This document shows, piece after piece, positions 17,814-44,840 of a DNA stretch of 64,000 nt (positions within the stretch are counted from its first letter, which is position 1; the number at the start of each line of letters is the position of its first letter). The notes beneath the pieces are model-generated. The model worked only from the letters and a program-made list of their open reading frames with translations. It did no database searches and was not told where the DNA came from. Source of the DNA: an uncultured Solirubrobacteraceae bacterium (GTDB lineage: Bacteria > Actinomycetota > Thermoleophilia > Solirubrobacterales > Solirubrobacteraceae); NCBI GenBank assembly GCA_963697795.1, contig OY969097.1:3138972-3202971 (forward strand), read 5' to 3'. A program made the translations under genes and the position numbers.

Positions 17814-18743
17814 TCAGAATTTTTCGCTGGCGATCACGTTCGTCGCTTCGGCGGACCAGAGCGTCCCGTTCAGGATGGCCGTGTTGTGGCCGGCTGCTGC
17901 AGGAAGTCCGATTTTGCCGTTGACGATCGGGTCGATGATGAAGGAGAAGAATTCGCCGCAGCCCGACGCTTCAGGTGCGGAGAAGGAGTTGTCCACCAGG
18001 GAGTTTTCAGACACCTTGGTGAGTTCGTAGCCTTTTTCTTCTTCTTCCGAAATGGTGCCGCGTTTGCCTTTGATCGGTTTGTTCGGCGAAGGCGGTTTGG
18101 TTTCGCCGGTCGTCAGGTTCAGCGTGACCGGGCTGCCTTCGGACCCGATGTAGCAGGAGTTCCCGAGCAGCGGGTTTTTGAGGTGCACCCGCACCGGCAG
18201 CTTCAGCGCCGTGCCTTCGCTGAACGCGAGGTTCGAAAGGTTGAGCACCGCTGGGTCTTTTTCGTTGGCGACGAGTTCAGTCGTCGCCGTGACGCCGGTG
18301 GAGTTCGGGTTTTCGAACGTCGCTTTGCAGAGGCCGCGGATCGCTTTTTCGAACAGGCCTTCGCCTTTGATTTCTTCGCAGTTGACGAAATTGAGAAGCC
18401 CGCCCGGAACATTCAGTTCCGTTTTTGACAGGCTTTCGCCGTTCTTGGCAGGCACCAAATAGTATTCGTTCAGGTGCACGCCGGTCGGAATGCCGCCGCC
18501 TTGCAAGGTCACCGTCTGGTTGATCGGGACTTTCGTCGTACCGACGACGAATTCCCCACCTGTCGTCTGTGCGTACTGACACAGAGACACGCCCGGCACT
18601 TCTGTCGGGCACTGCGCAAAGCGCGCGAAGATGCCTTTGGGCGTGGCGGCGGCGGTGCCGGCAGCGGCCAGCGAAACCGCAATCGCCAGCACCGCGGCGA
18701 ACATGGCGCCGCGTACGCCCCTAAGACGCCTGCTTTTGCTCAT
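17814..18743 (-). CDS. secreted protein of unknown function (cassette protein A)
   Basis: Signal peptide MSKSRRLRGVRGAMFAAVLAIAVSLAAAGTAAA, then TPKGIFARFAQCPTEVPGVSLC. Paralog at 33969..34907. Start chosen at the second ATG by analogy with the paralog. No recognisable domain. Confidence 0.7.
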   Translation of the reverse strand: MSKSRRLRGVRGAMFAAVLAIAVSLAAAGTAAATPKGIFARFAQCPTEVPGVSLCQYAQTTGGEFVVGTTKVPINQTVTLQGGGIPTGVHLNEYYLVPAKNGESLSKTELNVPGGLLNFVNCEEIKGEGLFEKAIRGLCKATFENPNSTGVTATTELVANEKDPAVLNLSNLAFSEGTALKLPVRVHLKNPLLGNSCYIGSEGSPVTLNLTTGETKPPSPNKPIKGKRGTISEEEEKGYELTKVSENSLVDNSFSAPEASGCGEFFSFIIDPIVNGKIGLPAAAGHNTAILNGTLWSAEATNVIASEKF

Positions 18744-19088
18744 CTGTATTCCCACTTTCTAATCGAGATTAGAGCCAGTGATTACGCAGGCAGAGCCTGC
18801 ATCGTCAAGCTAACGACGGGGCGCGGAAGCTCGCAAGGATTGTTTCCAATCCCAGGCGTGAGGCGTCCTCGGGCGGAGCTCCATCGTCAATCGCTGTTTC
18901 TGACTTCGCCGCCGTCCTTCGCGTGGCGAGGGTCCGCGCACGAAGGACAGCCGTGTAGAGATATGCCGGGGCGCCAAGGCAGCGCGATAGGGCGCGGCAT
19001 GACCCGGTAGGCTGAGCCCGATGCGACGCTCGCTCTGCATGACCGGGCACCCGTTAGAGCGATCCACGAGGGAACAGGGAGTAGAGGC

Positions 19089-22000
19089 ATGAGCAGCGAC
19101 AGGGGTAAGAGGATTGTGGTTGTTTGTGTTTTGGTGGTTGTGTGGTGTTGTGTGTGGTGTGGGGTGGTGTGGGGTTTTCGTGGGCATGAACGGGTTGCTG
19201 GTGGTGTGTTTGGGGTTTCTGGGTCTGGGGTGTTGGAGTTGGATGAACCGGTGGGTGTGGCGGTGGATGAAGGGTCGGGTGTGGTGTATGTGGTGGATCG
19301 TGCTGGTGGTCGGGTTGAGGTGTTTGATGGTGTGGCGGGGGATATTGGTGAGTTGGTTGGTAGGGGTTTGGCGTCTGGTGAATTTGATGGTAGTGGGTTG
19401 TTGGGTGAAGGGGTGGAGGCTGGTGGTGGTGGGTTAGCGGGTGAAGTGGTGACGGGTCGGTTTGTGGATCCGTCGGGGGTGGCGGTTGATAATGGGTGTC
19501 GTGATCATCGTCCTGAACCGTTGTCGGGTGCGGCGTGTGAAGCGTTTGATCCTTCGAATGGTGATGTGTATGTGTTGGATTCGGGTCATGAGGTGGTGGA
19601 TAAGTACACGGCGTTGGGGCGTTATGTGGGTCAGATCAACGCGGGAACGTTGGGTGTGGAAGAACATGTTCGGCTTGAAGGTGTTGCGGTTGAAGGTGAT
19701 GGGGATGTTCTGGTGAGCACGCAGACCACGGTGGAGGCGTTGAGGACGTCTGAGGAAGGTGTGTTCCGGTTGTCTGATGGTGTGCGGAATGTGGTGTTGG
19801 GGTCTGGTGTGCCGACGGGGTTTACGGCGGCGGCGCAGTTAGGGTTTGTTGAAGGTGGGTTGGGTGCGGCGGGTGGTCGGGTGTTTGTGCCGCAGGGGTT
19901 TGCGGAAAAGGATGTGGCGGTCTATAGTTTGGCGGGGGGTTTTGTTGAAGAATTGGGTACGGGGCATGTTGTGGGGTTGGTGGGTGAGGTGTGTACGGGG
20001 GATGTGTATGTGGATGTGCGTGAAGCTGGTGTGGTGAGGCGGTTTGGGGTTGGTGGGGGGTTGGTTGAAGAATTGGTTGCTGGTGGTGGTGGTGGGGTTG
20101 GTGTTGATTGTGTTGGGTCGGGGGGGACGGTGTTTGTGGCGTTACCGTCTGGTGGGGTTGTGGCGGTGTATGGGCCTGAAGCGCCGAAAGCTCCTTTGGT
20201 GTCGGGGTTGGCGGTGTCGGGTGTGACCGCGGGGTCGGTGCGGTTTAGTGCGGAAGTTGATCCGCGTAGTGAAGTGGGTGAAGCGGCGACTGAGTTTGTG
20301 GTGGAATATGGGTTATGTCCGGCGGTGGGGTCGTGTGAAGGTGTGGGGTTTGAACAGGAACGTTCGTTGACGGGTAGTGTGGGTGCGGTGTTTGAAGGTG
20401 TGGTTGTGTCGCGTGAAGTGTCTGGGTTGGTGGCGGGGGGCCGGTATCATTTCCGGGTTGGTGCTCGGAATTCGCATAGTGTTGGTGGTTTGTCTGGTGA
20501 ATATTCGTATGGTGTGGGGGAAGATGCTGAACGGGTGTTCGTGATGGAGGGTTTGTCGTCTGGTGGTGGGGCGGGGTTGTTGGATGGGCGTGGTTGGGAA
20601 CTTGTGTCGCCGGTGGATAAGAATGGTGCGCTGGTTTTGCCGGTGCTTGAAACGGGGTTGATTGAGGCGGCGGCGGGGGGTGGGGCGTTTACGTATTTGG
20701 CTTCGACGGCGACTGAAGCCGGGGCGTTGGGTAATTCGAATAAGATGCAGGTGTTGGCGCGGCGGGGGTCGGGTGGTTGGGCGTCGTGTGATGTGGGGTT
20801 GCCGAATGGTGAAGCGACGGGCGTGTCGGTTGGGCAGGGGCAGGAGTATCAGGGGTTCAGCGCGGATTTGGGGACGGGTTTGGCGCGGCCGTTGGGGCGG
20901 GTCGTGCGGGGTCTTGTGGGTGGGGAGCGGGAAGTGAGCCCGTTGCTGGTGGGGTTCTCGGGGGCGTGCGGGGCGGGGGGGCTGTCTTATGATGCGTTGT
21001 TGTCGGGGTGTCCGTTGACGGGTGAATGTGAAGCTGTGGTGCGGGAACACGCGGATGTCGAACCGGGCATCGAAGTTGCCGAGGAAGGTTTGTGCGCGCA
21101 TGAAGTGCCGTTTTGTGATGGGGAACCGTTAGCGGCTAATGAATCGTTGTCGGGGGTGGTGTTGCGTTCGATGACGCCGTTGGTCGCGGGCGCGCCGGTG
21201 GAAGCGTTGTATGAGCCTTATGGTGGGCGGGTGTATCCGGTCAGTGTGAGACCGAACGGGACGGTGGTGGGTACTGTCGCGCATGAGCCGGTGGCGGGGA
21301 CGCAGGCGCACGGCAACGCGTTGCGTGGTGTGGTCTCAGCGGATGGTTCGCGGGTGGTGTGGTCAGAAGAAGTGCCGAATGGGCATTTGTTTGTGTGGGA
21401 TCGTGGGTTGGAACGGAGTGTGCAGGTTGATGTGGTGCAGGCGGGTGGGTCGGGGACAGGGCCTGTTGGGGCTGTTTTCCAGTACATGACCGGGGATGGG
21501 TCGAGGGTGTTTTTCACGGATACGCAGCAGTTGACGGCGGGGTCTGGTGCTGAAAATGATTCGCCGGATTTGTATGTGTGTGAAGTGGTGGTGGAAGGTT
21601 CGTCGGGGAAGTGTGTTGTGAGGGATTTGACGCCGATGGTGGGTGGGCAGCATGCGGATGTGTTGGGGCAGGTGATCGGCGGCTCGGAATCGGGCGGGTT
21701 AGTGTATTTCGTAGCGAATGGTGAGTTGACGAAAACACCGTCCGCGTCGGGAGAAGAACCGGTCGCGGGAGGGTGCGGGTTGGAATCGTCGCCGGGGAAG
21801 TTGTGTGATTTGTATGTGTGGAGTGAAGGTGCCGCGGAACCGGTGTTGGTGGGTGTGCTGTCGGGTGAAGACGTGGATGATTGGGGTGGCGGTAGCGAGC
21901 AGTTGACGAATTTGACGGGGCGGGTCGCGGGTGGGGGTGAATGGTTGGTGTTTATGTCGGATCGGTCGTTGACGGGTTATGACACGCGGGATGCGGTCGT

Positions 22001-22850
22001 TTCGGGGGTGCGTGATGAGGAGGTGTATGAGTACAGGTTCGGGGGCGGGTTGGTGTGTGTGTCGTGTGATCCGTCTGGTGAACGGCCGCATGGGGTGGAA
22101 TACGCGAAGTTGAACGAAGGTGCGGCGGCGGGTACTGGCGTGTGGCCGGAAGGGGCACGGCTGGCGGGGTTTGTGCCTAGTTGGACTCCTTACCGGAAGC
22201 AAGGGGCGTTTTATCAGTCGAGGTTTTTGGGTGGGTCGGGGCGGGTGTTTTTTGATTCGTCTGATGGTTTGGTGGCTGGTGATAGTGATGGTGTGGTTGA
22301 TGTGTATGAGTTTGAGCCGGTTGGGGTGGGTTCGTGTCGGGTGGGTGGTGTGGGGTTCGTGGCGGTTGATGATGGTTGTTTGGGGTTGGTGTCGTCGGGT
22401 GAAAGTGGTCAGGAATCAGGGTTTTTGGATGCGTCTGAATCTGGTGATGAAGTGTTCTTTTTGACTACTTCTCGGTTGTCGGGGCGTGATAGGGACACGG
22501 CGTATGATGTGTATGATGCGCGTGTGGGTGGCGGGGAACCCGTGCTGTCGGGGGTTGGTGTGTGTGGGGGTGGGTTTTGTCAGGAACCGGCTGGGGAACC
22601 GTCGGCTCCGGTGGCGGGGTCGGAGGGGTTTGAAGGGCCGGGTAGTCCGTTGGTGGAAGCGATCGTGCCGCCGGTGAAGGTGTTGACGCGGGCGCAGAAG
22701 TTGAAGGCCGCGTTGAAGGCGTGTGGTAGGGATCGTGTGAAGCGTAAGCGGGTGGTGTGTGAACGTGGTGCGCGTAGGCGGTATGGGCCGGTGAAGAAGA
22801 AGAAGGGTGTGCGAGGGGCGTCTGTGGTGCGGGTTGGGGGGCGAGGCTGA
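19089..22850 (+). CDS. large V/G-rich membrane-anchored or secreted repeat protein, NHL-like and PD40/TolB-like beta-propeller repeats (cassette protein B)
   Basis: 1253 codons. Hydrophobic N-terminus (VVVCVLVVVWCCVWCGVVW). NHL-like motifs are PVGVAVDEGSGVVYVVDRAGGRVEVFD and PSGVAVD...NGDVYVLDSGHEVVDKY. PD40-like motifs are SADGSRVVWSE, GDGSRVFFTD, GGLVYFVANG, GEWLVFMSDRS, SGRVFFDSSD and GDEVFFLTTS. The C-terminal tail is basic. The ORF is far longer than the 60-120-codon chance ORFs in the other frames of this stop-poor region. Confidence 0.75.
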   Translation: MSSDRGKRIVVVCVLVVVWCCVWCGVVWGFRGHERVAGGVFGVSGSGVLELDEPVGVAVDEGSGVVYVVDRAGGRVEVFDGVAGDIGELVGRGLASGEFDGSGLLGEGVEAGGGGLAGEVVTGRFVDPSGVAVDNGCRDHRPEPLSGAACEAFDPSNGDVYVLDSGHEVVDKYTALGRYVGQINAGTLGVEEHVRLEGVAVEGDGDVLVSTQTTVEALRTSEEGVFRLSDGVRNVVLGSGVPTGFTAAAQLGFVEGGLGAAGGRVFVPQGFAEKDVAVYSLAGGFVEELGTGHVVGLVGEVCTGDVYVDVREAGVVRRFGVGGGLVEELVAGGGGGVGVDCVGSGGTVFVALPSGGVVAVYGPEAPKAPLVSGLAVSGVTAGSVRFSAEVDPRSEVGEAATEFVVEYGLCPAVGSCEGVGFEQERSLTGSVGAVFEGVVVSREVSGLVAGGRYHFRVGARNSHSVGGLSGEYSYGVGEDAERVFVMEGLSSGGGAGLLDGRGWELVSPVDKNGALVLPVLETGLIEAAAGGGAFTYLASTATEAGALGNSNKMQVLARRGSGGWASCDVGLPNGEATGVSVGQGQEYQGFSADLGTGLARPLGRVVRGLVGGEREVSPLLVGFSGACGAGGLSYDALLSGCPLTGECEAVVREHADVEPGIEVAEEGLCAHEVPFCDGEPLAANESLSGVVLRSMTPLVAGAPVEALYEPYGGRVYPVSVRPNGTVVGTVAHEPVAGTQAHGNALRGVVSADGSRVVWSEEVPNGHLFVWDRGLERSVQVDVVQAGGSGTGPVGAVFQYMTGDGSRVFFTDTQQLTAGSGAENDSPDLYVCEVVVEGSSGKCVVRDLTPMVGGQHADVLGQVIGGSESGGLVYFVANGELTKTPSASGEEPVAGGCGLESSPGKLCDLYVWSEGAAEPVLVGVLSGEDVDDWGGGSEQLTNLTGRVAGGGEWLVFMSDRSLTGYDTRDAVVSGVRDEEVYEYRFGGGLVCVSCDPSGERPHGVEYAKLNEGAAAGTGVWPEGARLAGFVPSWTPYRKQGAFYQSRFLGGSGRVFFDSSDGLVAGDSDGVVDVYEFEPVGVGSCRVGGVGFVAVDDGCLGLVSSGESGQESGFLDASESGDEVFFLTTSRLSGRDRDTAYDVYDARVGGGEPVLSGVGVCGGGFCQEPAGEPSAPVAGSEGFEGPGSPLVEAIVPPVKVLTRAQKLKAALKACGRDRVKRKRVVCERGARRRYGPVKKKKGVRGASVVRVGGRG

Positions 22851-25800
22851 TGCTCGCGGGACTGTCAGCGGGTAGTGAGGGTGGCGTGAGGTGTGGTGTT
22901 GGTGGTGTGGTTGTGTGGCGTGTTGTGGTGTTGGTGGTGTGTGTGGTGGTGTTGGGGTTGTGTGTGGGGGTTGGTGTTGGTTGGGGTGCGGGTGGTTCGG
23001 TGGGTTGGTGGCGGTTGGGTGTTGGTGCGAGGCCGGTGGTGTTGGGTGTTGGTAGTGAAGGTGAGGTTGTGGGGTTTGCTGAGAATGTTGGGTATGGTCC
23101 GGTTGATGGTGGGATTGTGCCGGTGAGGGTTGGGATGGTGTTGCCGGCTGGGTTGAGGGCGGTTGGCGTGGCTGGTGCGGTCCCGTTTGCGAATACTCAG
23201 ACGGTGGTGCCGGGTTGTAAAGTGCTGGCGGGTGGTGGGGAAGTGTTGTGTGAATTTGAAGGTGGGTTGCCTGCTTTTGACGGGATCGAAGTGCGGGTGA
23301 AGGTGGATGTTGAAAGTGTGGTGTCGGGGAAGGTTGGGTTGGTGGTGTCGGGTGGGGAAGTGTCGGGAGCGGAAGTGCAGCGCGGAGTGAGGGTGGGGTC
23401 TGAAGAACCGGCGTTTGGGGTTGAAGAATTCGGGTTGGCGTTGGAAGAAGCTGGTGGCGGCCCGGTGTCGCAGGCGGGCGCGCATCCGTTTCAGATGACG
23501 GCGTCGGTTGCGGTGAATTCGGGGCCTGATCCGGGTTCGCTTGCGGAAAAGCCCGGGCAGCAGCCGGTGGTGTTGCCGAAGGATATTGTGACGGGGTTGC
23601 CGGCGGGTTTGGTGGGTGACCCGAACGGGGTGCCGACGTGCAGTCTCGCTGATTTTTTGCGGATCGTGAATAATGTGGATTTGTGTACGGCCGCGACGCA
23701 GGTTGGGGTTGTGTCCACGACCGCGAATGTGAAGAGCGCGATCGGGTCCGCGACGTTCGTGTTGCCGTTGTTCAATCTCGAACGTGGTCCGGGGGAGCCG
23801 GCACGGTTCGGGTTCATGATCCCTGAAGACAAACTGCCGGTCGTGCTTGACCCGCAGTTGCGTGATGAAAAGGGCGGGGATTATGGGATCGATGTGCACG
23901 CGAGCGATTTGTCCCAGACGGGTGGTGTGACGTCCGCGAGGGTGACGGTGTGGGGTGCTCCGGGTGATCCGCGTCATGATGCGGAGCGTGGCTGGTCTTG
24001 TATTTATGTGTTGAACGGTACGCCGCCGCCGAGCCCGTGCGAGATCCCCGAAGGCGAAAGCAATACGGCGTTCTTGCGGTTGCCGACGCAGTGCGAAACG
24101 CTGCCGGAATTCACGTTGCGGGCGGACTCGTGGGATAAACCGGGCGAGTTTCTGTCGTTCACGCCTGATGAACCGTTGCCGTTGTTCACGGGTTGTAACC
24201 GGTTGCAGTTCGCGCCGAGCGTGAGCGTGCTGCCGTCGACGAGCACGGCCGGGGCCGCGTCGGGTTTGGATGTGACCGTGGAAGACCACAACGAAGGGTT
24301 GACGGCCGGGGAAGGCCGCTCGCAGTCGGATGTGAAGGACACCACGATCACGCTGCCGGAAGGCATGACGGTCAACCCGTCCGCGGGCAACGGGCTGGGC
24401 GCATGCTCCCAGGAACAGTTCGAAGACGAAACGCTTGAGCGTCAGGAATGTCCGGCTGACTCGCAGATCGGGGAACTGGAAGTAGAAACCCCGCTTTTGA
24501 ACAAGGTGTTGCACGGGGCGGTGTATGTCGCTGAACCGTATGGCAACCAGTTCCACTCGTTGCTCGCGATGTTCTTCGTGGTCAAGGACCCCGAAACCGG
24601 GGTACTGGTCCGGATCCCCGGAGAAGTCCAGGCCAACGAAACGACAGGGCAGCTGACAAGCACGATCAAGGACCTGCCCCAGCTGCCGTTCTCACGCGTC
24701 AGCGTGCACCTGCGCGAAGGACCCCTGGCACCGTTGATCACCCCGCCCGGATGCACCAGCGAAGCGCAGACCACCGGTGCGCTGATCCCGTGGGCCAACC
24801 CGCAGAGCAGCACCCCGGTATCCACGAGCTTCCAGATCAACAACTGCCCCGGCAGCCCGTTCACCCCCGGCCTGACCGCGGGGACCGAGAGCAACAGCGC
24901 GGGCTCGTTCAGCCCGCTCGTCCTGCGCCTGACGCGGAGTGACCGCGAAAACGAAATCTCGACGATCACGACCAGCCTGCCCGGCGGGCTCAGCGCCGAT
25001 CTGAACGGTGTGCAGTTCTGCAGCCAGGCACAGATCGAAAACGCGCGGGCCGTCAGCGGCCTTCAAGAGAAAAACATGCCCTCCTGCCCGGCGGGCAGCC
25101 AACTCGGAGAAACGCTCGTCGGCAGCGGTGTCGGTGCCAGCCTGACCTACGTGCCCGGGAAAATCTATTTCGCAGGCCCCTACCGTGGCGCACCATTCTC
25201 GCTGGTCAGCATCACCCCCGCAGTCGTCGGCCCGTTCGACCTCGGAGATGTCGTGCTCAGATTCGCTTTGCAGATCAACCCCGAAACCTCCGCGGCGACA
25301 GTCGAACCGACCCCCGGAGAACCATTGCCCCGGATCATCAAGGGCATCGTCACGCACGCCCGCGATATCCGCGTGATGATCACCCGGGCCGGGTTCACGC
25401 TGAACCCAACCAACTGCAACCCCACCCAGATCACCACCACGATCACAAGCACCCAAAACCAGACCAGCACCCCCACGGCCCGCTACCAGGCAGCCAACTG
25501 TCCAGGCCTGAAATTCGCGACCAAACTCACCGCCAGCACCCAAGGCCAAACCTCCCGCGCCAACGGCGCAAGCCTGACCGTGCACGTCAGCCAACCCAGC
25601 CTCCCCCTCGGCACCTTCACAAACCTCAAATCCGTAAAGACCGAAATCCCCAGAAGCCTCCCCGCACGCCTTGAAACCCTCAAAAAATCCTGCCCAGCCC
25701 CCACCTTCAACACCAACCCCGCCGGCTGCCCCAGCACAGCCATCGTCGGCCACGTAACCGCGAACAGCCCACTCGTCCCCGAACCCCTCCAAGGCCCCGC

Positions 25801-26146
25801 CTACCTCGTAAGCCACGCCGGCGAAGAACTCCCCAACGTCATCTTCGTCCTGCAAGGCTACGGCATCACCATCCACGCCACCAGCACCACCCACATCCAC
25901 AACGGCATCACCACCAGCACCTTCAACACCCTCCCCGACCAACCCCTCACCAACCTCACCGCAACCTTCCCCGAGCAACGCTACAGCCTCCTCGGCACCA
26001 TCTACAACCTCTGCACCCTCCCCAAAACCCAACTCACCATGCCCACCACCCTCACCGCCCAAAACGGCACCCAAACCCACCAAAACACCACCATCACCCC
26101 CACCAACTGCCCCAAACACCACACCAAAACCAAACACAAACACTAA
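22850..26146 (+). CDS. large membrane-anchored protein of unknown function with T/P/N/H/K-rich C-terminus (cassette protein C)
   Basis: 1098 codons. The start ATG overlaps the B stop (TGATG). N-terminal TM helix VVVWRVVVLVVCVVVLGLCVGVGVGW. Many conserved Cys. The tail is ...TITPTNCPKHHTKTKHKH. Nucleotide composition flips from G+T-rich to C+A-rich inside this ORF. Confidence 0.75.
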   Translation: MLAGLSAGSEGGVRCGVGGVVVWRVVVLVVCVVVLGLCVGVGVGWGAGGSVGWWRLGVGARPVVLGVGSEGEVVGFAENVGYGPVDGGIVPVRVGMVLPAGLRAVGVAGAVPFANTQTVVPGCKVLAGGGEVLCEFEGGLPAFDGIEVRVKVDVESVVSGKVGLVVSGGEVSGAEVQRGVRVGSEEPAFGVEEFGLALEEAGGGPVSQAGAHPFQMTASVAVNSGPDPGSLAEKPGQQPVVLPKDIVTGLPAGLVGDPNGVPTCSLADFLRIVNNVDLCTAATQVGVVSTTANVKSAIGSATFVLPLFNLERGPGEPARFGFMIPEDKLPVVLDPQLRDEKGGDYGIDVHASDLSQTGGVTSARVTVWGAPGDPRHDAERGWSCIYVLNGTPPPSPCEIPEGESNTAFLRLPTQCETLPEFTLRADSWDKPGEFLSFTPDEPLPLFTGCNRLQFAPSVSVLPSTSTAGAASGLDVTVEDHNEGLTAGEGRSQSDVKDTTITLPEGMTVNPSAGNGLGACSQEQFEDETLERQECPADSQIGELEVETPLLNKVLHGAVYVAEPYGNQFHSLLAMFFVVKDPETGVLVRIPGEVQANETTGQLTSTIKDLPQLPFSRVSVHLREGPLAPLITPPGCTSEAQTTGALIPWANPQSSTPVSTSFQINNCPGSPFTPGLTAGTESNSAGSFSPLVLRLTRSDRENEISTITTSLPGGLSADLNGVQFCSQAQIENARAVSGLQEKNMPSCPAGSQLGETLVGSGVGASLTYVPGKIYFAGPYRGAPFSLVSITPAVVGPFDLGDVVLRFALQINPETSAATVEPTPGEPLPRIIKGIVTHARDIRVMITRAGFTLNPTNCNPTQITTTITSTQNQTSTPTARYQAANCPGLKFATKLTASTQGQTSRANGASLTVHVSQPSLPLGTFTNLKSVKTEIPRSLPARLETLKKSCPAPTFNTNPAGCPSTAIVGHVTANSPLVPEPLQGPAYLVSHAGEELPNVIFVLQGYGITIHATSTTHIHNGITTSTFNTLPDQPLTNLTATFPEQRYSLLGTIYNLCTLPKTQLTMPTTLTAQNGTQTHQNTTITPTNCPKHHTKTKHKH

Positions 26147-26544
26147 AACCACCCAACCACACCCCCACCAGCAACCCGCCAACCACACCTCCACCAGCAA
26201 CCCGCCACCCCCCCGCCAACCCACCCCTCACAAAGCACAGCACCGCGCCGAGTCGCGAGGTCCTGTGGGCGTCCGGTAACGAACACGGCAGCCCAGTATC
26301 TACCCCGTCCTGGTGGTTGTGGTGGTCGTTCCGGAAGTGGGGGAACGATGCTCGCGAACCCGTGTAATCAAAAACACGGCCTGTGGTGGGAGACAAACCC
26401 GTCAAACGCTTGACCGGCCCGCAGCACCTCGGGCACACTGACAGGGTCCTAAACACTCCTCCCCGTCTTGACCAAGCAACACCAACAACCGGTCAAGCAC
26501 ACAACCAGGGAGGAGGAAAACCAAAGCAAGGGAGCAAGGACCCA

Positions 26545-27258
26545 ATGAAACACATCAAAACGCTCGGCCTCGCCCTGCTCGCACTCTTCGCGATCAGCGC
26601 GATCACCGCAGCAGCGGCGAGCGCAATCACAAACGCAGAATTCTTACCCGCACCAACAGTCAGCAGCCCACTCAACGCGAGCGTCACCGGCGGCAAAGGC
26701 AAGCTCGTCACCGTCGGCGGCAAGGTGGTCAGCTGCGAAGGCTTCAAAGGCAGTGGGAAATTCACGAGTGCGACGTTAGGGGAAGGCTCGATCGAATTCA
26801 CGACGTGCTCGAGTGAAGGCTCGAAATGCACGACCGGCTCAGACGCCAAAGGCACGATCTTAGCGCCCACAGTCGACCTGTTAGCCGTCTCGGTATCGGA
26901 AGCATCCAAACTATTACTTGGACTTCTAATCACTCCGACCGCGAATGTGACTTTCACATGCGGCGTCCTGAAATTCGAAGTCAAGGGCTCAATCGTCGCT
27001 GAAGCCGGGCAACTAAGAGAATCATCCCTGACCGAAACACTGAAAACAGTACCGATGCCCGCCGAAGGCACCAAAGAATTAATCTTAGCCGTACTACTGA
27101 CCCTCGTGCTCAACGAGACGAATGGCAAACCGACATTCGGTCCTGACCACCTCGAAACAACCGACAACGGGACCACGTTCGAAGAATCCGGGATCAAGTC
27201 CGAAGAAACGATCACGGTGACCTTCAGCAACCCCGAAAAGGTCCACATCGACTACTAG
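26545..27258 (+). CDS. small secreted 4-Cys protein, tandem paralog D1
   Basis: 237 aa. Signal peptide MKHIKTLGLALLALFAISAITAAAASA. The mature part begins ITNAEFLPAPTVSSPL and ends SNPEKVHIDY. The true start is inside ORF 26383..27258. I counted 7 TTA and 4 CTA among 28 Leu codons. Confidence 0.8.
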   Translation: MKHIKTLGLALLALFAISAITAAAASAITNAEFLPAPTVSSPLNASVTGGKGKLVTVGGKVVSCEGFKGSGKFTSATLGEGSIEFTTCSSEGSKCTTGSDAKGTILAPTVDLLAVSVSEASKLLLGLLITPTANVTFTCGVLKFEVKGSIVAEAGQLRESSLTETLKTVPMPAEGTKELILAVLLTLVLNETNGKPTFGPDHLETTDNGTTFEESGIKSEETITVTFSNPEKVHIDY

Positions 27259-27286
27259 CCACACCGCAACACAACACAAGCAGAAA

Positions 27287-27315
27287 GGTGGGGCCGCCTC
27301 CAAGGCGGCCCCACC
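27287..27315 (+). terminator. GC-rich intergenic stem-loop after D1
   Basis: GGTGGGGCCGCC-TCCAA-GGCGGCCCCACC, a perfect 12-bp stem with no U-tract. The same element follows D2 and both D1/D2 homologs in copy 2. Confidence 0.4.
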
Positions 27316-27475
27316 ACACTCCACACCAAAAAGAGAACAGCCAGACCTTAGAGAACCTCACACCACGCACACGACACAAACCAGACACAAAACGCAGGGC
27401 ATGTGGGGACCAACAACACAGCGGGCATCGACCCGTCCGTGCCCAACAACAACAGTCCACACAGAGGAGCCCACA

Positions 27476-28189
27476 ATGAACCACGCAAAGGCAACACTCC
27501 TCGCCCTGCTCGCACTCACCGCGACCAGCGCGATCACCGCAACAACAGCAAACGCGGTCACAAACGCAGAATTCTTACCCTCACCAACAGTCAGCAGCCC
27601 ACTCAACGCGAGCATCACCGGCGGCAATCTCAAACTAGTCACTGTCGGCGGCAAGGAAGTCAGATGCACAGGCTTCAAAGGTAGCGGTAGCTTTACGAGT
27701 GCGACGTTAGGGACGGGCTCGATTGAATTCACGACGTGCACGAGTGAAGGCTCGAAATGCACGACCGGCGCAGACGCCAAAGGCACGATCTTAGCGCCCA
27801 CGGTCGACCTGTTAGCCGTCTCGGTATCGGAAGCATCCAAACTATTACTTGGACTTCTAATCACTCCGACCGCGAACGTGACTTTCACATGCGGCGTCCT
27901 GAAATTCGAAATCAAGGGCTCTGTCGTCGCTGAAGCCGGGCAACTAAGAGAATCATCCCTGACCGAAACACTCAAAACAGTACCGAGGCCCGCCGAAGGC
28001 ACCAAAGAATTAATCTTAGCCGTACTACTGACCCTCGTGCTCAACGAGTCAGGTGGCAAACCGACATTCGGTCCTGACCACCTCGAAATAACCGACAACG
28101 GCACCACCTTCGAAGAATCCGGGCTCAAGTCCGAAGAAACAATCACGGTGACCTTCAGCAACCCCGAAAAGGTCCACATCGACTACTAG
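27476..28189 (+). CDS. small secreted 4-Cys protein, tandem paralog D2
   Basis: 237 aa. GAGGAG lies 7 nt upstream of the ATG. Starts MNHAKATLLALLALTATSAITATTANA, then VTNAEFLPSPTVSSPL. I counted 7 TTA and 5 CTA codons. Confidence 0.8.
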   Translation: MNHAKATLLALLALTATSAITATTANAVTNAEFLPSPTVSSPLNASITGGNLKLVTVGGKEVRCTGFKGSGSFTSATLGTGSIEFTTCTSEGSKCTTGADAKGTILAPTVDLLAVSVSEASKLLLGLLITPTANVTFTCGVLKFEIKGSVVAEAGQLRESSLTETLKTVPRPAEGTKELILAVLLTLVLNESGGKPTFGPDHLEITDNGTTFEESGLKSEETITVTFSNPEKVHIDY

Positions 28190-28212
28190 CCACGCAACAC
28201 AACACGCAGACA

Positions 28213-28242
28213 GGTGGGGCCGCCTCCAGAGGCGGCCCCACC
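28213..28242 (+). terminator. GC-rich intergenic stem-loop after D2
   Basis: GGTGGGGCCGCC-TCCAGA-GGCGGCCCCACC, 12-bp stem. Confidence 0.4.
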
Positions 28243-28404
28243 ACGCTCCAGACCAACGGGAGGACGGCCAGACGTTTAGAGAACGTCGGCCACGAACACG
28301 ACACAAACCAGACACAAAGCGCAGGGCATGTGGGGACCAACAGCACAGCGGGCAGAGCCCCGCCGGTGCCTAAACTACAAAAGTTCCACACCGAGGAGCC
28401 GACA

Positions 28405-29118
28405 ATGAACCACACAAAGGCGACACTTCTTGCCCTGCTCGCACTCACCGCGACCAGCGCGATCACCGCAGCAACAGCAAACGCGGTCACAAACGCAGAA
28501 CTGTTACCCGCACCAACAACCAGCAGCCCACTCACCGCGAGCGTCACCGGCGGCAAAGGCAAACTCGTCACCGTCGGCGGCAAGGAAGTCAGCTGCACCG
28601 GCTTCGCGGGTAAAGGGAAATTCACGAGTGCGACGTTAGGGACGGGCTCGATCGAATTCACGACATGCTCGAGTGAAGGCTCGAAATGCACGACCGGCTC
28701 AGACGCCAAAGGCACGATCTTAGCACCCACCGGCGACCTGTTAGCCGTCTCGGTATCGGAAGCATCCAAACTATTACTCGGACTGCTAATAACCCCCACC
28801 GCCAACGTGACCTTCACATGCGGCGTCCTGAAATTCGAAGCCAAGGGGTCCCTCATTATTGAAGCGAGTGAACTAAGAGAATCATCCCTGACCGAAACAC
28901 TCAAAACAGTACCGATGCCCGCCGAAGGCACCAAAGAATTAATCTTAGCCGTACTAATAACCGGTACGCTCAACGAGACGGGAGGAAAACCGACCTTCGG
29001 TCCCGACCACCTCGAAATCTCCGACAACGGCACCACATTCGAAGAAGCCGGCGCCAAGTCCGAAGAAACGATCACCGCAACCTTCAGCAACCCCGAAAAG
29101 ATACACATCGACTACTAG
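28405..29118 (+). CDS. small secreted 4-Cys protein, tandem paralog D3
   Basis: 237 aa. MNHTKATLLALLALTATSAITAATANA, then VTNAELLPAPTTSSPL, ending SNPEKIHIDY. Most similar to 45937..46650. Confidence 0.8.
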   Translation: MNHTKATLLALLALTATSAITAATANAVTNAELLPAPTTSSPLTASVTGGKGKLVTVGGKEVSCTGFAGKGKFTSATLGTGSIEFTTCSSEGSKCTTGSDAKGTILAPTGDLLAVSVSEASKLLLGLLITPTANVTFTCGVLKFEAKGSLIIEASELRESSLTETLKTVPMPAEGTKELILAVLITGTLNETGGKPTFGPDHLEISDNGTTFEEAGAKSEETITATFSNPEKIHIDY

Positions 29119-33968: not shown

Positions 33969-34907
33969 TCAGAATTTTTCGCTTGCGATCACTGCGGATG
34001 CTTCCGCGGACTTCAGCGTCCCGGTGAGGATCGCGGTGTTGTGGCCGCTTGCCGAGGGCAAACCGAGTTTGCTGTCGACGAGCGGGTCGATGATGAAGGA
34101 GAAGAATTCGCCACAGCCCGACGCGGCAGGCGCGGAGTACGCGTTGTCTACCAGCGAGTTTTCTGACAGTACGCTGAGTTCGTACCCTTTTTCTTCTTCT
34201 TCTGAGATTTTCCCGCGGTTGCCTTTGATCGGTTTGTTCGGCGGCGGCGGGGCCGTCGTACCCGTCGTCAGGTGCAGCGAGACGGGGCTGCTTTCAGACC
34301 CGATGTAGCACGAGTTCCCCAGCAGCGGGTTTTTCAAGTGCACCCGAACCGGAAGGGTCAGAGCCGTGCCTTCTTCGAAGACGAGGTTCGAAAGGTTCAG
34401 AATGGCGGGATCTTTTTCGTTGGCCACGAGTTCCGTGGTCGCTGTCACGCCGGTCGTTTTGTTTTCGAAGATCGCTTTGCACAGGCCGCGGACGGCTTTT
34501 TCAAACAGGCCTTCGCCTTTGATTTCTTCGCAATTGACGATGTCGAGCAGCCCGCCCGGCACGTTCAGTTCGGTTTTGGACAGGCTTTCGCCGTTCTTCG
34601 CGGGCACCAGGAAGTATTCGTTGAGGTGCACACCCGTCGGGATACCGCCGCCCTGAAGCGTGATCGTTTTGTTGATCGGTACTTTCGTGCTACCGATCGA
34701 GAATTCGCCGCTCGTCGTCTGCGCATACTGGCAAAGTGCCACACCGGGCACTTCCGTCGGACACTGCGCAAAGATGGAGAAGATGCCTTTCGGCGCAGCT
34801 GCCGCCGAGCCGGCCCCCACCATCAGGATCACGCTAGCAAGCGCACCGACCGCCGCTGCGGAAAGCACACGGTGCGGCAAGCGCCCGTGGCGTCTAAATC
34901 TACTCAT
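33969..34907 (-). CDS. secreted protein of unknown function (cassette protein A, copy 2)
   Basis: MSRFRRHGRLPHRVLSAAAVGALASVILMVGAGSAAAA, then PKGIFSIFAQCPTEVPGVALC. Collinear with 17814..18743 to the shared C-terminus ...VIASEKF. Confidence 0.7.
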   Translation of the reverse strand: MSRFRRHGRLPHRVLSAAAVGALASVILMVGAGSAAAAPKGIFSIFAQCPTEVPGVALCQYAQTTSGEFSIGSTKVPINKTITLQGGGIPTGVHLNEYFLVPAKNGESLSKTELNVPGGLLDIVNCEEIKGEGLFEKAVRGLCKAIFENKTTGVTATTELVANEKDPAILNLSNLVFEEGTALTLPVRVHLKNPLLGNSCYIGSESSPVSLHLTTGTTAPPPPNKPIKGNRGKISEEEEKGYELSVLSENSLVDNAYSAPAASGCGEFFSFIIDPLVDSKLGLPSASGHNTAILTGTLKSAEASAVIASEKF

Positions 34908-35152
34908 CGCTGTATGCCCACTTTCGTTGTGTTGGATCAACCCGTCAGCGATACATGGTCCGACAAGGCAGAACAGCCTCACCGGACTGCTACGAACGCA
35001 ACGTAGCCGGAGGTCAAGCGGGCCGACAACATCTGTCTCCGACTGGGCGCACCACCATCGGTAGCGGAACGCAACGGCTGCAAGGCATGTTTCCTACTGC
35101 GAGGGCGCGGCGAACTCTCGACCCATCGAATGGGGGCCGCCCAACGGGCTAT

Positions 35153-38100: not shown

Positions 38101-38965
38101 GCGGGATGCGGTCGTTTCGGGGGTGCGTGATGAGGAGGTGTATGAGTACAGGTTCGGGGGCGGGTTGGTGTGTGTGTCGTGTGATCCGTCTGGTGAACGG
38201 CCGCATGGGGTGGAATACGCGAAGTTGAACGAAGGTGCGGCGGTGGGTACTGGCGTGTGGCCGCTTGGGGCGCGGCTGGCGGGGTTTGTGCCGGGGTGGG
38301 TTCCGTATCGGCTTGCGCAGTCGTTTTATCAGTCGAGGTTTTTGGGTGGGTCGGGGCGGGTGTTTTTTGATTCGTCTGATGGTTTGGTGGCTGGTGATAG
38401 TGATGGTGTGGTTGATGTGTATGAGTTTGAGCCGGTTGGGGTGGGTTCGTGTCGGGTGGGTGGTGTGGGGTTCGTGGCGGTTGATGATGGTTGTTTGGGG
38501 TTGGTGTCGTCGGGTGAAAGTGGTCAGGAATCAGGGTTTTTGGATGCGTCTGAATCTGGTGATGAAGTGTTCTTTTTGACTACTTCTCGGTTGTCGGGGC
38601 GTGATAGGGACACGGCGTATGATGTGTATGATGCGCGTGTGGGTGGCGGGGAACCCGTGCTGTCGGGGGTTGGTGTGTGTGGGGGTGGGTTTTGTCAGGA
38701 ACCGGCTGGGGAACCGTCGGCTCCGGTGGCGGGGTCGGAGGGGTTTGAAGGGCCGGGTAGTCCGTTGGTGGAAGCGATCGTGCCGCCGGTGAAGGTGTTG
38801 ACGCGGGCGCAGAAGTTGAAGGCCGCGTTGAAGGCGTGTGGTAGGGATCGTGTGAAGCGTAAGCGGGTGGTGTGTGAACGTGGTGCGCGTAGGCGGTATG
38901 GGCCGGTGAAGAAGAAGAAGGGTGTGCGAGGGGCGTCTGTGGTGCGGGTTGGGGGGCGAGGCTGA
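35153..38965 (+). CDS. large V/G-rich NHL/PD40-like repeat protein (cassette protein B, copy 2)
   Basis: Near-identical to 19089..22850 from VCVLVVVWCCVWCGVVW onward, except for a few clustered divergent patches. The N-terminus differs, so the start (ATG 35153/35159/35165) is uncertain. Confidence 0.7.
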   Translation: MLMTMLTSRLGGSCPIAARACEHAVRLALVCVLVVVWCCVWCGVVWGFRGHERVAGGVFGVSGSGVLELDEPVGVAVDEGSGVVYVVDRAGGRVEVFDGVAGDIGALVGRGLASGEFDGSGLLGEGVEAGGGGLAGEVVTGRFVDPSGVAVDNGCRDHRPEPLSGAACEAFDPSNGDVYVLDSGHEVVDKYTASGRYVGQINAGTLGVTELHAIQGVAVEGDGDLLVSTYTAFAEEASGEGVFRLSDGVRNVVLGSGVPTGFTEAAQLGFVEGGLGAAGGRVFVPQGFAEKDVAVWDLAGGFVETLGTGHVVGLVGEVCTGDVYVDVREAGVVRRFGVGGGLVEELVAGGGGGVGVDCVGSGGTVFVALPSGGVVAVYGPEAPKAPLVSGLAVSGVTAGSVRFSAEVDPRSEVGEAATEFVVEYGLCPAVGSCEGVGFEQERSLTGSVGAVFEGVVVSREVSGLVAGGRYHFRVGARNSHSVGGLSGEYSYGVGEDAERVFVMEGLSSGGGAGLLDGRGWELVSPVDKNGALVLPVLETGLIEAAAGGGAFTYLASTATEAGALGNSNKMQVLARRGSGGWASCDVGLPNGEATGVSVGQGQEYQGFSADLGTGLARPLGRVVRGLVGGEREVSPLRVGFSGACGAGGLSYDALLSGCPLTGECEAVVREHADVEPGIEVAEEGLCAHEVPFCDGEPLAANESLSGVVLRSMTPLVAGAPVEALYEPYGGRVYPVSVRPNGTVVGTVAHEPVAGTQANGSALRGAVSADGSRVVWSEEVPNGHLFVWDRGLERSVQVDVVQAGGSGTGPVGAVFQYMTGDGSRVFFTDTQQLTAGSGAENDSPDLYVCEVVVEGSSGKCVVRDLTPMVGGQHADVLGQVIGGSESGGLVYFVANGELTKTPSASGEEPVAGGCRLESSPGKLCDLYVWSEGAAEPVLVGVLSGEDVDDWGGGSEQLTNLTGRVAGGGEWLVFMSDRSLTGYDTRDAVVSGVRDEEVYEYRFGGGLVCVSCDPSGERPHGVEYAKLNEGAAVGTGVWPLGARLAGFVPGWVPYRLAQSFYQSRFLGGSGRVFFDSSDGLVAGDSDGVVDVYEFEPVGVGSCRVGGVGFVAVDDGCLGLVSSGESGQESGFLDASESGDEVFFLTTSRLSGRDRDTAYDVYDARVGGGEPVLSGVGVCGGGFCQEPAGEPSAPVAGSEGFEGPGSPLVEAIVPPVKVLTRAQKLKAALKACGRDRVKRKRVVCERGARRRYGPVKKKKGVRGASVVRVGGRG

Positions 38966-42276: not shown

Positions 42277-42336
42277 AACCACCCAACCACACCCCCACCA
42301 ACCACACCCCTCACAAAGCACAGCACCACGCCGAGT

Positions 42337-44783: not shown

Positions 44784-44811
44784 CCACACCGCAACACAAC
44801 ACAAGCAGAAA

Positions 44812-44840
44812 GGTGGGGCCGCCTCCAAGGCGGCCCCACC
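44812..44840 (+). terminator. GC-rich intergenic stem-loop
   Basis: GGTGGGGCCGCC-TCCAA-GGCGGCCCCACC, identical to the element at 27287..27315. Confidence 0.4.

What the first reader, a model, noticed from the sequence alone, without database searches (positions are those of the whole stretch)
17814..29118. Mirror-image strand composition: + strand G+T-rich on the left arm and C+A-rich on the right arm, flipping inside one ORF
SEEN by hand counts of 60-nt lines. 19141-19200 has 53 G+T (4 C, 3 A). 20041-20100 has 55 G+T. 18061-18120, inside the minus-strand gene A, has G21 T22 C13 A4. In contrast 26041-26100 has 54 C+A (4 G, 2 T). The crossover lies between about 24.3 and 24.7 kb, in the middle of the 1098-codon gene C. 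The N-terminal half of C is therefore V/G/L/W/F-rich and the C-terminal half is T/P/N/Q/H/K-rich. Third-position choices flip accordingly, from GGT/GTT/GAT/TTG to AAA/GAA/CAA/TTA/CTA. The polarity follows the DNA strand and not the coding strand: gene A on the minus strand and genes B/C on the plus strand share the same + strand G+T excess. Flanking housekeeping genes are ordinary. Relative to a ~70% GC background, the left arm looks like C-to-T on the + strand and the right arm like C-to-T on the minus strand. ESTABLISHED: Cytosine deamination is far faster in single-stranded DNA. Strand-coordinated C-to-T / G-to-A clusters that switch polarity are the footprint of two-sided 5' resection at a double-strand break in the presence of a deaminase. 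The same geometry arises where forks converge, or when opposite strands are displaced from the two ends of a linear protein-primed replicon. INFERENCE: The cassette carries the scar of massive, strand-specific deamination centred near 24.5 kb, or it descends from an element with such a replication mode. It has nevertheless kept >1000-codon ORFs, which implies selection on the proteins during or after the process. I have not seen this described for a bacterial chromosomal locus.
Basis: partly seen in the sequence, partly recalled or inferred. Interest (0 to 1): 0.85.

Follow-up and report, generated by a model that had tools for sequence, protein, structure and literature searches.

The report
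Operon-bound mirror-image strand composition skew
A two-gene surface-protein operon of a soil actinobacterium (order Solirubrobacterales) has almost no C in its first 5 kb and almost no G or T in its last 1.7 kb, flipping gradually inside one conserved gene; the pattern is real, follows the transcript rather than a DNA break, recurs in related bacteria, and I found no published description of it.

Summary
Over 19110-24300 the + strand is about 75% G+T, and third codon positions are 85-95% G/T. Over 24700-26240 it is 67-97% C+A. The fraction of G/T at third positions falls smoothly from 0.95 to 0.03 inside gene C. One-kb windows lie 5-7.5 sd from 685 background windows.

The break, converging-fork and linear-replicon readings do not fit. 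The extreme skew runs from about 20 nt inside gene B to 95 nt past the stop of gene C. A 200-nt unskewed spacer holding a conserved promoter interrupts it. Gene A is unskewed at four-fold sites, and the D genes sit near the family baseline.

The same 5'-to-3' gradient, always in this polarity, occurs in about a dozen of about 160 related loci, in five or more separate lineages. Ordinary relatives show it faintly.

My preferred reading (0.35) is long-term directional pressure on the C/G balance of the B-C transcript. The main rival (0.3) is transcription-coupled strand-specific deamination, possibly through R-loops. Neither is shown. The anomaly is large, reshapes two proteins that remain under selection, and appears undescribed.

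The parts
17814..18755 (-). Gene A, a 313-aa secreted protein of unknown family. It lies outside the extreme skew.
   Evidence: Four-fold sites are G.43 T.09 C.42 A.06. Only Lys/Glu/Gln codons are unusual, 78% A-ending, which is a family trait. It has no Pfam, NCBIfam or PDB match.
18835..18849 (+). Conserved motif AAGGATTGTTTCCAA in the A-B spacer.
   Evidence: Among 81 loci it is found only in the window, L007, L080 (twice) and L081. Its role is unknown.
19089..22850 (+). Gene B, 1253 aa, with an N-terminal membrane anchor and an NHL/beta-propeller-type region. It is G+T-rich throughout.
   Evidence: Pfam NHL match. K3 is 0.74-0.93. Four-fold sites are G.66 T.29 C.04 A.02. Gly plus Val make up 35% of residues in B plus the 5' part of C.
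19110..24300 (+). C-depleted (G+T-rich) part of the B-C transcription unit.
   Evidence: It starts sharply about 20 nt after the B start codon, and the upstream 333 nt are normal. None of 482 78-nt windows over 19110-24000 has C>G.
22850..26146 (+). Gene C, 1098 aa, a conserved Solirubrobacterales protein. Its start overlaps the stop of B (TGATG). It contains the whole gradient.
   Evidence: More than 740 full-length homologues. K3 falls from 0.95 to 0.03.
24300..24700 (+). Crossover zone, where K3 passes 0.5.
24700..26240 (+). G/T-depleted (C+A-rich) 3' part of C plus a 94-nt 3' untranslated tract (26147-26240).
   Evidence: Codons 901-1098 have four-fold sites C.87 A.09 G.03 T.01. The 3' tract is C.60 A.31 G.07 T.02. 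139 of 147 78-nt windows have C>G. It ends sharply at 26240.
26241..26440 (+). Unskewed spacer. It holds a conserved box GTGGGAGACAA (26386-26396) and the D1 promoter-like site TTGACC-N18-CACACT (26410-26439).
   Evidence: G+T fraction is 0.40-0.60. The promoter-like site is conserved in both copies, L007 and L080, and in variant form in L079 and L081.
26445..29118 (+). D1 (26545-27258), D2 (27476-28189) and D3 (28405-29118), three paralogous 237-aa secreted proteins. They are moderately C+A-rich. There is a hairpin at 27287-27315 and a terminator-like hairpin at about 29148-29182.
   Evidence: K3 is 0.19-0.36, which is near the K3 of 0.33-0.37 seen in the short D-type matches of ordinary relatives. 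Singleton changes among the paralogues show no strand asymmetry. Hairpins.
33969..34982 (-). A', the second-copy gene A.
   Evidence: 81.6% nucleotide identity to A.
35238..42336 (+). Second copy of the skewed B-C block: B' (ORF 34955-38965, probable start near 35154), C' (38965-42276) and the 3' tract.
   Evidence: 98.8% identical to 19120-26138. C and C' differ only at 22855 and by a 5-codon repeat. Upstream sequences are unrelated.
42339..43775 (-). IS256-family insertion in the C'-D1' spacer.
   Evidence: Pfam Transposase_mut, E = 6e-84. Terminal inverted repeats at 42343-42362 and 43752-43771.
44070..46650 (+). D1' (44070-44783), D2' (45003-45716) and D3' (45937-46650).

Best explanation
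The skew is a property of the B-C transcription unit of a multi-copy operon for secreted or cell-surface proteins. Its sense strand, and therefore its mRNA, has lost C and partly A over the first ~5 kb. It has lost G and T over the last ~1.7 kb, including the 3' untranslated tract. Shown: the domain is bounded by the transcript, the polarity is always 5' G+T to 3' C+A, both arms go to the extreme together, and the pattern has arisen repeatedly in this operon family on top of a faint family-wide gradient. Inferred, and my preferred mechanism: long-term directional selection on the C/G balance of the nascent or mature RNA, supplied mainly by ordinary transition mutations. Under this reading the C-poor, G-rich 5 kb is a poor substrate for the two C-directed RNA surveillance machines known in this phylum. 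Those are Rho, which needs C>G stretches with YC dimers, and actinobacterial RNase E, which cuts 5' of C. The C-rich, G-poor end would then be a very strong Rho loading and termination zone in front of the separately promoted D genes. Weakly constrained amino-acid positions were carried along: Gly/Val-rich upstream and Thr/Pro/Asn/Gln/His/Lys-rich downstream.
For: Domain edges. The skew starts 20-45 nt after the B start codon in the window (both copies) and in L007. In L080 and L081 it starts at the beginning of a long untranslated leader. It ends 95-150 nt after the C stop in the window, L007, L081 and L152. The unskewed spacer holds the conserved D1 promoter.
Polarity. Besides the two window copies, L007, L079, L080 and L081, 6 of 80 metagenome loci are strongly skewed. 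All have N-terminal K3 above C-terminal K3, and none is reversed (minimum difference -0.14). The skewed members are scattered over five or more lineages. Eighteen ordinary orthologues show the same gradient faintly, K3 0.60 to 0.39, rho = 0.86 with the window profile.
Both arms go together. In each of the seven strongly skewed loci in this test (C-N K3 0.69-0.82), C-C K3 is 0.36 or lower, whereas the two are positively correlated in ordinary loci.
Codon classes. Four-fold sites look like the family baseline with two letters removed and the rest rescaled. The left is G.66 T.29 against an expected .75/.25. The right is C.87 A.09 against an expected .85/.15. GC3 stays at about 0.85 in the right arm, so this is not simple GC-to-AT decay.
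C>G windows. 0 of 482 upstream, 139 of 147 downstream, 0.46-0.48 in the flanks.
Established knowledge. Rho needs C>G stretches (PMC6144790). Mycobacterial RNase E cuts 5' of cytidines (PMC10641625).
Against: The magnitude is far beyond any documented selection on Rho or RNase sites: C or G at 3-4% of four-fold sites, and 35% Gly+Val. Untranslated leaders fit pure C>T plus A>G conversion (G.46 T.35 C.11 A.07) better than a rescaled baseline, and the model does not predict loss of A. U is enriched upstream although Rho also binds U. Translating ribosomes should mask a C-rich coding region from Rho. Only about 7-10% of family members show the extreme state. No transcript ends, Rho dependence or RNA half-lives were measured. 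Gene A of L081 is strongly G-poor without an obvious reason under this model.
Confidence: 0.35

Rival explanations
1. Transcription-coupled, strand-specific mutation. G-rich sense RNA forms persistent RNA:DNA hybrids (R-loops) over B and the 5' part of C. The displaced non-template strand then loses C, and more slowly A, by deamination, which raises the GC skew further in a self-reinforcing way. The 3' part would need the template strand to be exposed instead, for example through antisense transcripts or replication conflicts.
For: Leaders of L080 and L081 match C>T (60%) plus A>G (65%) conversion of the intergenic baseline. In B, T at four-fold sites rises from .06-.13 to .29, and its level per codon family follows the C-ending usage of flank genes. 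GC3 falls to about .60, and Leu CTG is replaced by TTG. Among isolated transitions between the two copies, C/T outnumbers A/G 7 to 2. Skewed members sit on long branches. The left edge lies close to the start of the transcript. TpC is less over-represented on the C-depleted strand of both arms than in the flanks, but codon structure confounds this.
Against: One transcription unit shows both polarities. The 3' part needs C loss on the template strand. No conserved antisense promoter was found in the C-D1 spacer, and the spacer itself is unskewed, so an antisense transcript cannot have crossed it. The right arm keeps GC3 at about .85, with G>C as the commonest inferred change. The local protein-determined skew does not predict the sign: B's value of +0.11 matches the one flank gene I checked by hand, and K3 does not follow local position-1/2 composition.
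Confidence: 0.3
2. One reading: repeated double-strand breaks or gap repair in gene C. Two-sided resection, or inward repair synthesis between the paralogous copies, would expose the + strand on the left and the - strand on the right to deamination.
For: The geometry is right. The two copies are homogenised over exactly the skewed block (98.8% against 94% and 82% outside it), with patchy differences typical of gene conversion. The family is multi-copy in many genomes.
Against: The outer edges are sharp and the skew is strongest at the edges, not near the centre. An unskewed spacer lies between skewed tracts. The homology limits are explained by unrelated upstream DNA and by the IS insertion. 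The polarity is fixed relative to the operon in about a dozen independent loci. The protein search returned no other C paralogue from this contig, yet both copies have a sharp left edge.
Confidence: 0.07
3. Descent from a linear, protein-primed or otherwise bidirectionally replicated element, or a local zone where replication forks converge.
For: A bipolar skew of this sign is what such replication gives (my own knowledge of adenovirus- and phi29-type genomes).
Against: The arms show no inverted complementarity beyond what composition gives. The window has no polymerase, terminal-protein, integrase or relaxase gene, and the flanks are housekeeping genes. B and C are conserved chromosomal genes with normal composition in most relatives.
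Confidence: 0.02
4. The composition is simply protein-driven or ancestral: Gly/Val-rich N-terminal parts and Thr/Pro-rich C-terminal parts.
For: The family has a mild N-to-C difference in amino-acid 'keto index' (median +0.074).
Against: The skew is strongest at synonymous sites and in untranslated tracts. Ordinary orthologues have K3 of 0.35-0.65.
Confidence: 0.03
5. Assembly or sequencing artefact.
For: The most similar genomes are nanopore metagenome-assembled genomes, and the window probably comes from the same kind of assembly. L007 does carry indel errors.
Against: The same pattern appears in independent JGI and Logan assemblies (L079, L080, L081, L082, L104, L152). ORFs are intact in both window copies.
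Confidence: 0.01

Closest known systems
Rho-dependent terminators and rut sites (C>G 'bubbles')
   Same: The last 1.5 kb of the unit and its 3' tract are C-rich, G-poor and weakly structured, and they end just before the next promoter. Regions without C>G bubbles lack Rho signals (PMC6144790), as would hold for the first 4.9 kb.
   Different: Known rut sites span about 60-100 nt and do not reshape 1.5 kb of coding sequence or protein composition. No Rho dependence was measured here.
Transcription-associated mutational strand asymmetry: C>T on the non-transcribed strand in E. coli, and G+T excess on the coding strand of mammalian genes (own knowledge; reviewed in PMC10030826 and PMC2927911, which I listed but did not read)
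   Same: It is confined to transcribed DNA, and the coding strand is G+T-rich over B and the 5' part of C.
   Different: The effect here is an order of magnitude stronger, and it reverses sign within the same transcription unit.
R-loop-prone GC-skewed regions, such as immunoglobulin switch regions and CpG-island promoters (own knowledge)
   Same: Kilobases of G-rich non-template strand lie downstream of a promoter.
   Different: The sequence is protein-coding and bacterial, and it is followed by an equally strong opposite skew.
Heavy/light strand asymmetry of vertebrate mitochondrial DNA (own knowledge)
   Same: A G+T-rich versus C+A-rich strand pair, with a positional gradient attributed to time spent single-stranded.
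   Different: That case is replication-linked, genome-wide and of one polarity. This one is operon-bound and bipolar.
Strand-coordinated mutation clusters (kataegis) flanking resected breaks (own knowledge)
   Same: C>T on one side and G>A on the other.
   Different: Those are single somatic events. This is a heritable, conserved and recurrent state with edges at transcript boundaries.
Bipolar skew of linear protein-primed replicons such as adenovirus and phi29 (own knowledge)
   Same: The sign of the skew switches in the middle.
   Different: There are no inverted termini and no replication genes, and the locus is chromosomal.

Membership tests
Replication-linked chromosomal GC/AT skew | The skew extends over a replichore and switches only at the origin or terminus. 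| tested here: not met
   Flanks on both sides are unskewed. The domain is 7.1 kb and occurs twice in 64 kb.
Transcription-associated strand asymmetry | Confined to transcribed DNA. | tested here: met
   The upstream DNA is normal. The promoter spacer 26241-26440 is unskewed. Leaders and 3' tracts are skewed. Transcript ends are inferred from sequence, not measured.
Transcription-associated strand asymmetry | The coding (non-template) strand is enriched in G+T along the whole unit. | tested here: not met
   This holds for 19110-24300 and is reversed for 24700-26240.
Rho-dependent terminator (rut) | At least 60-80 nt of C-rich, G-poor, weakly structured RNA upstream of the transcript end. | tested here: met
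   139 of 147 windows have C>G. The 3' tract is C.60 G.07. Folding energy is -30 against -53 to -70 kcal per 150 nt in the flanks.
Rho-dependent terminator (rut) | Termination depends on Rho. | not testable with these tools
   This needs Term-seq with and without Rho inhibition.
R-loop-forming region | G-rich non-template strand with G clusters downstream of a promoter. | tested here: met
   G is .46 and C is .13 over 3.7 kb, with runs of G visible in the sequence.
R-loop-forming region | RNA:DNA hybrids are actually present. | not testable with these tools
   This needs DRIP-seq.
Break-centred deamination clusters (kataegis type) | Contiguous strand-coordinated changes decaying outward from a break, independent of gene boundaries. 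| tested here: not met
   The skew is strongest at the outer edges, the edges are sharp, and an unskewed spacer lies within the region.
Break-centred deamination clusters (kataegis type) | Deaminase sequence context, such as 5'-TC. | tested here: inconclusive
   TpC observed/expected is 0.95 and 0.74 on the depleted strands against 1.3 in the flanks, but codon structure confounds this. Four-fold sites are saturated in every context.
Linear protein-primed replicon | Terminal inverted repeats plus polymerase and terminal-protein genes. | tested here: not met
Repeat-induced point mutation (fungal RIP-like) | Duplicated copies each mutated C>T, diverging from one another, with strong AT enrichment. 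| tested here: not met
   The copies are 98.8% identical. GC is still .58-.64 and GC3 is .85 in the right arm.
Diversity-generating retroelement | A reverse transcriptase with a template/variable repeat pair and adenine-specific changes. | tested here: not met
   None of the 28 window ORFs I scanned against Pfam matches a reverse transcriptase. The changes are not A-specific.

The most novel reading that the evidence does not exclude
This operon family is subject to a locus-specific, self-sustaining process tied to its own transcription. It could be a strand-specific hypermutation, for example R-loop or deaminase driven. It could equally be an 'armoured' mRNA design that evades C-directed RNA surveillance. 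Either way, the process repeatedly drives the sense strand to a near two-letter alphabet (G/T, then C/A) and rewrites the amino-acid composition of two large functional surface proteins. Neither mechanism has been described at operon scale in bacteria.
Probability: 0.3. Interest if true: 0.9.

Novelty: new variant of a known kind. Interest (0 to 1): 0.75.

Why it matters
If the cause is mutational, this would be a natural bacterial case of targeted, transcription-linked strand-specific hypermutation. It would be strong enough to override codon and amino-acid usage while selection keeps 1100-1250-codon genes working. That would make the link between R-loops or single-stranded DNA and long-term sequence evolution directly testable. 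If the cause is selective, requirements of RNA surveillance (Rho, C-specific RNase E) can dictate the composition of kilobases of coding sequence and of the encoded proteins. That would change how codon usage and compositional 'foreignness' are read in high-GC bacteria. In both cases the graded series of related loci, from none to extreme, is a ready-made comparative system.

Tried and rejected
1. Inverted complementarity, terminal repeats or a panhandle between the arms. The best matches are no better than block shuffles.
2. Consensus promoter and terminator scan. It was uninformative apart from the hairpins in the D region.
3. A conserved antisense promoter in the C-D1 spacer. Only the D1 promoter and one upstream box are conserved.
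4. Amplification of a pre-existing protein-determined skew. B's position-1/2 GC skew (+0.11) matches the one flank gene I checked by hand (codon-position composition), and the window's K3 is a smooth function of position and does not track local protein composition.
5. A genome-wide 5'-to-3' GC3-skew gradient. It exists but is tiny, about 0.05.
6. Deaminase context from dinucleotides. Codon structure confounds it.
7. Polymorphism spectrum from L007 against L082 (99.3% identical). The differences are mostly nanopore indels or errors.
8. D paralogue singletons. There is no strand asymmetry, so D is not part of the process.
9. Closer relatives for polarising substitutions. The metagenome scan with the single protein found nothing, and the scan with an alignment reached only 48% identity at best.
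10. AlphaFold model of D from five paralogues. Mean pLDDT was 28, which is unusable, so no fold search was run.
11. Pfam, NCBIfam and PDB sequence searches for A, C and D. There were no matches.
12. Literature searches for extreme GC skew, Solirubrobacterales skew, and R-loops in bacteria. I found no description of this pattern.

Full report
OBSERVATION. Gene B (19089-22850) is A.13 C.13 G.46 T.27. The 3' part of gene C (24700-26146) is A.25 C.43 G.21 T.12. The flanks are about 70% GC with G roughly equal to C. One-kb windows reach GC skew +0.59 and -0.52. That is 5-7.5 sd from 685 background windows taken from the flanks and from ordinary related loci.

The effect is strongest at synonymous positions. 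I call the G+T fraction at third codon positions K3. K3 is 0.74-0.93 across B. In C it falls monotonically from 0.95 to 0.03 and crosses 0.5 at about 24.35-24.65 kb. The ORFs are genuine. C has more than 740 full-length homologues, B carries an NHL repeat, and the chance of such open frames given the composition is e^-48 and e^-33. The long antisense ORFs lie in the frame aligned with the sense codons, where rare TTA, CTA and TCA codons leave no stops. I treat them as by-products.

ANATOMY. The layout is A(-) B C D1 D2 D3 at 17814-29118 and again at 33969-46650, separated by ilvE, a leuA-like gene and a DegT gene. The surrounding genes are housekeeping genes. The B-C block is 98.8% identical between the copies (19120-26138 against 35238-42253), and C is essentially identical. 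The D region is 93.8% identical and A is 81.6%. The differences within B are clustered in patches. The sequence upstream of B is unrelated in the two copies. An IS256-family element with inverted ends sits in the C'-D1' spacer.

The extreme skew has sharp edges. It begins at about 19110, seven codons into B, after 333 nt of normal spacer. It ends at 26240, 94 nt beyond the stop of C, so the 3' untranslated tract is skewed too (C.60 A.31 G.07 T.02). Next come 200 nt of ordinary composition. This stretch holds a promoter-like site TTGACC-N18-CACACT that is conserved in both copies, L007 and L080, and in variant form in L079 and L081. Downstream of it the D unit is moderately C+A-rich. B and C overlap by TGATG, so they are co-translated from one message. 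The skew domain therefore coincides with an inferred B-C transcription unit.

WHAT HAS CHANGED. Housekeeping genes in the window use G.39 T.06 C.50 A.05 at four-fold sites. They use 10% T at two-fold pyrimidine sites and 9% A at two-fold purine sites. B uses G.66 T.29 C.04 A.02, then 84% T and 36% A. Codons 901-1098 of C use C.87 A.09 G.03 T.01, then 0% T and 92% A.

Ordinary relatives of this operon already have lower GC3 and many AAA/GAA/CAA codons. Their B baseline is G.40 T.13 C.38 A.08, with 30% T and 45% A. Those features are therefore family traits. Relative to that baseline the left arm has lost C and a little A, and the right arm has lost G and T.

Changes polarised against 18 normal-composition orthologues are not pure transitions. 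On the left, the per-base rates are C>T .19, A>G .22, C>G .12 and C>A .11. On the right they are G>C .20, G>A .18 and T>C .13. Untranslated leaders of L080 and L081 (G.46 T.35 C.11 A.07) match C>T plus A>G conversion of intergenic DNA almost exactly. The 3' tracts hold more C than transitions alone would give.

Amino-acid usage follows the nucleotides. Gly is 18.5% and Val 16.3% upstream. Thr is 18.5% and Pro 9.7% downstream, with Asn, Gln, His and Lys also raised. Family-invariant residues are kept. Of 18 isolated differences between the copies, 11 fall at third positions. The proteins are therefore still under purifying selection.

In this window gene A is not part of the phenomenon. Its four-fold sites are G.43 C.42. 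The D genes sit near the values seen in the few short D-type matches of ordinary relatives (K3 0.33-0.37), and changes among the D paralogues show no strand asymmetry.

RELATIVES. All related loci come from Solirubrobacterales metagenome-assembled genomes or soil metagenomes. Most have K3 of 0.35-0.65 in B and in both halves of C. The same gradient appears strongly in several others:
- L007 and L082, the same species from nanopore and Illumina data. In L082 the C ORF is intact.
- L079, with K3 falling from .93 to .04.
- L081, with B at .71-.95 and C falling from .82 to .17.
- L104, L152, L135 and L096.
- L080 and L126, in intermediate form.

The polarity is always the same, and no locus is reversed (minimum difference -0.14). 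On a tree built from the unskewed middle of C, the skewed members fall in five or more separate places, on long branches, next to unskewed relatives. Eighteen ordinary orthologues show the gradient faintly, with K3 falling from .60 to .39 and rho = 0.86 with the window profile. In the extreme loci both arms are extreme together, whereas in ordinary loci the two ends are positively correlated. The state is therefore recurrent and graded, and it looks like the result of a single cause tied to the operon.

In L081 the divergently transcribed gene A is also extreme. Its coding-strand K3 falls from .18 to .01, so its + strand is G+T-rich.

The nucleotide-driven, mirror-image loss from opposite strands is right, and so is continued selection on the proteins. 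A break-centred resection scar, converging forks or linear-replicon ancestry is not supported, for four reasons:
- The skew is strongest at sharp outer edges and does not decay outward from the centre.
- It skips a non-conserved spacer.
- It is fixed relative to the operon in about a dozen independent loci.
- There are no inverted termini and no replication genes.
The match between the high-identity block and the skewed block is explained by the limits of homology, namely the unrelated upstream DNA and the IS insertion.

MECHANISM. Two transcript-linked explanations remain, and I cannot separate them decisively.

(a) Selection on the C/G balance of the RNA. The first 4.9 kb contain no 78-nt window with C>G (0 of 482). 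In the last 1.5 kb, 95% of windows have C>G, against 46-48% in the flanks. Rho requires C>G stretches (PMC6144790). RNase E, rate-limiting for decay of most mRNAs in mycobacteria of the same phylum, cuts 5' of C (PMC10641625). This single variable accounts for several features:
- the bounds at the transcript ends;
- the inclusion of leaders and the 3' tract;
- the fixed polarity and the coupling of the two arms;
- the retained GC3 on the right;
- four-fold usage that looks like a rescaled baseline.
Against it stand the unprecedented magnitude, the loss of A, the enrichment of U, and the small share of loci affected.

(b) Transcription-coupled deamination of a displaced strand, with R-loops formed by the G-rich RNA. 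This explains the transition signature in the leaders, the excess of T, the fall of GC3 in B and the long branches. It requires the template strand to be the exposed one over the 3' part, and I found no evidence for that. It also fits the right arm poorly.

I give (a) 0.35 and (b) 0.30. Recombination or break models get 0.07, and the other rivals listed 0.06 in total. The rest is unassigned.

KNOWN SYSTEMS AND NOVELTY. The nearest known things are rut-type C>G skew, transcription-associated strand asymmetry, R-loop-prone GC-skewed regions, the mitochondrial heavy/light strand gradient, kataegis, and the bipolar skew of linear replicons. Each shares one aspect and fails on others, as set out in the membership table. 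Literature searches found no description of a bacterial operon with this pattern. I rate it a new and extreme variant of transcript-linked strand asymmetry. There is a real chance, about 0.3, that the underlying process is new in kind. Interest: 0.75.

Noticed in passing
window 33969-46650: There is a complete second copy of the A-B-C-D1-D2-D3 cassette. B-C are 98.8% identical to copy 1, but the DNA upstream of B is unrelated. The differences within B are clustered in short patches (19659-19753, 19922-19952, 21309-21331, 22149-22206), although the protein search returned no other C paralogue from this contig.
   Followed up: partly
window 42339-43775: An IS256-family element with 20-nt inverted ends is inserted a few nt past the right edge of the skew in copy 2. 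By eye, its transposase reading frame appears split by a 1-nt frameshift near 43160. That could be a pseudogene, a programmed shift or an assembly error.
   Followed up: partly
window 26386-26439 and 43911-43964; L007 13512-13564; L080 about 8720-8774: A conserved promoter-like site TTGACC-N18-CACACT is preceded by a conserved box GTGAGAGACAA (GTGGGAGACAA in the window) upstream of the first D gene. It is shared by loci whose C proteins are only 48-52% identical to the window's C.
   Followed up: partly
window 18835-18849; L007 4247-4261; L080 301-315 and 422-436; L081 943-957: The motif AAGKNTTGTTTCYRA lies in the spacer next to gene A. Among 81 loci it was found only in four loci that carry strong or intermediate skew. 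In L080 and L081 the G+T-rich leader starts right after it.
   Followed up: partly
window genes A, B, C, D and 47288-48157; ordinary relatives: The whole operon family, together with the neighbouring collagen-like gene, uses A-ending Lys/Glu/Gln codons far more often than housekeeping genes do (32-92% against 9-19%). It also has lower GC3. This holds regardless of the skew.
   Followed up: partly
window 27287-27315 and about 29148-29182: A perfect 13-bp GC-rich hairpin lies between D1 and D2, and a terminator-like hairpin lies after D3. This suggests attenuated read-through within the D array.
   Followed up: no
window 47288-48157; L007 about 4543-5200; L080 616-1425: A collagen-like (Gly-X-Y) secreted protein gene travels with the cassette in different positions. 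In L080 it lies inside the skewed unit and is itself G+T-rich (K3 .64-.79).
   Followed up: no
L081 3-845 (minus strand): The gene A homologue of this relative is extremely G-poor on its coding strand, with K3 falling from .18 to .01 toward its 3' end. This differs from gene A in the window. It is the one case where the + strand G+T excess spans divergent genes.
   Followed up: partly
window 26096-26146 against 42226-42276: The C-terminal basic tail of C differs between the copies by one extra TKTKH unit (15 nt). In ordinary relatives the equivalent tail is Lys/Arg-rich. Here it is built from Lys (AAA), His (CAC) and Thr (ACC), so the positive charge is kept without using G.
   Followed up: no
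L007 9900-10310: Apparent frameshifts in B and C of this nanopore assembly are absent from the 99.3% identical Illumina contig L082. They are assembly errors and not pseudogenisation.
   Followed up: yes
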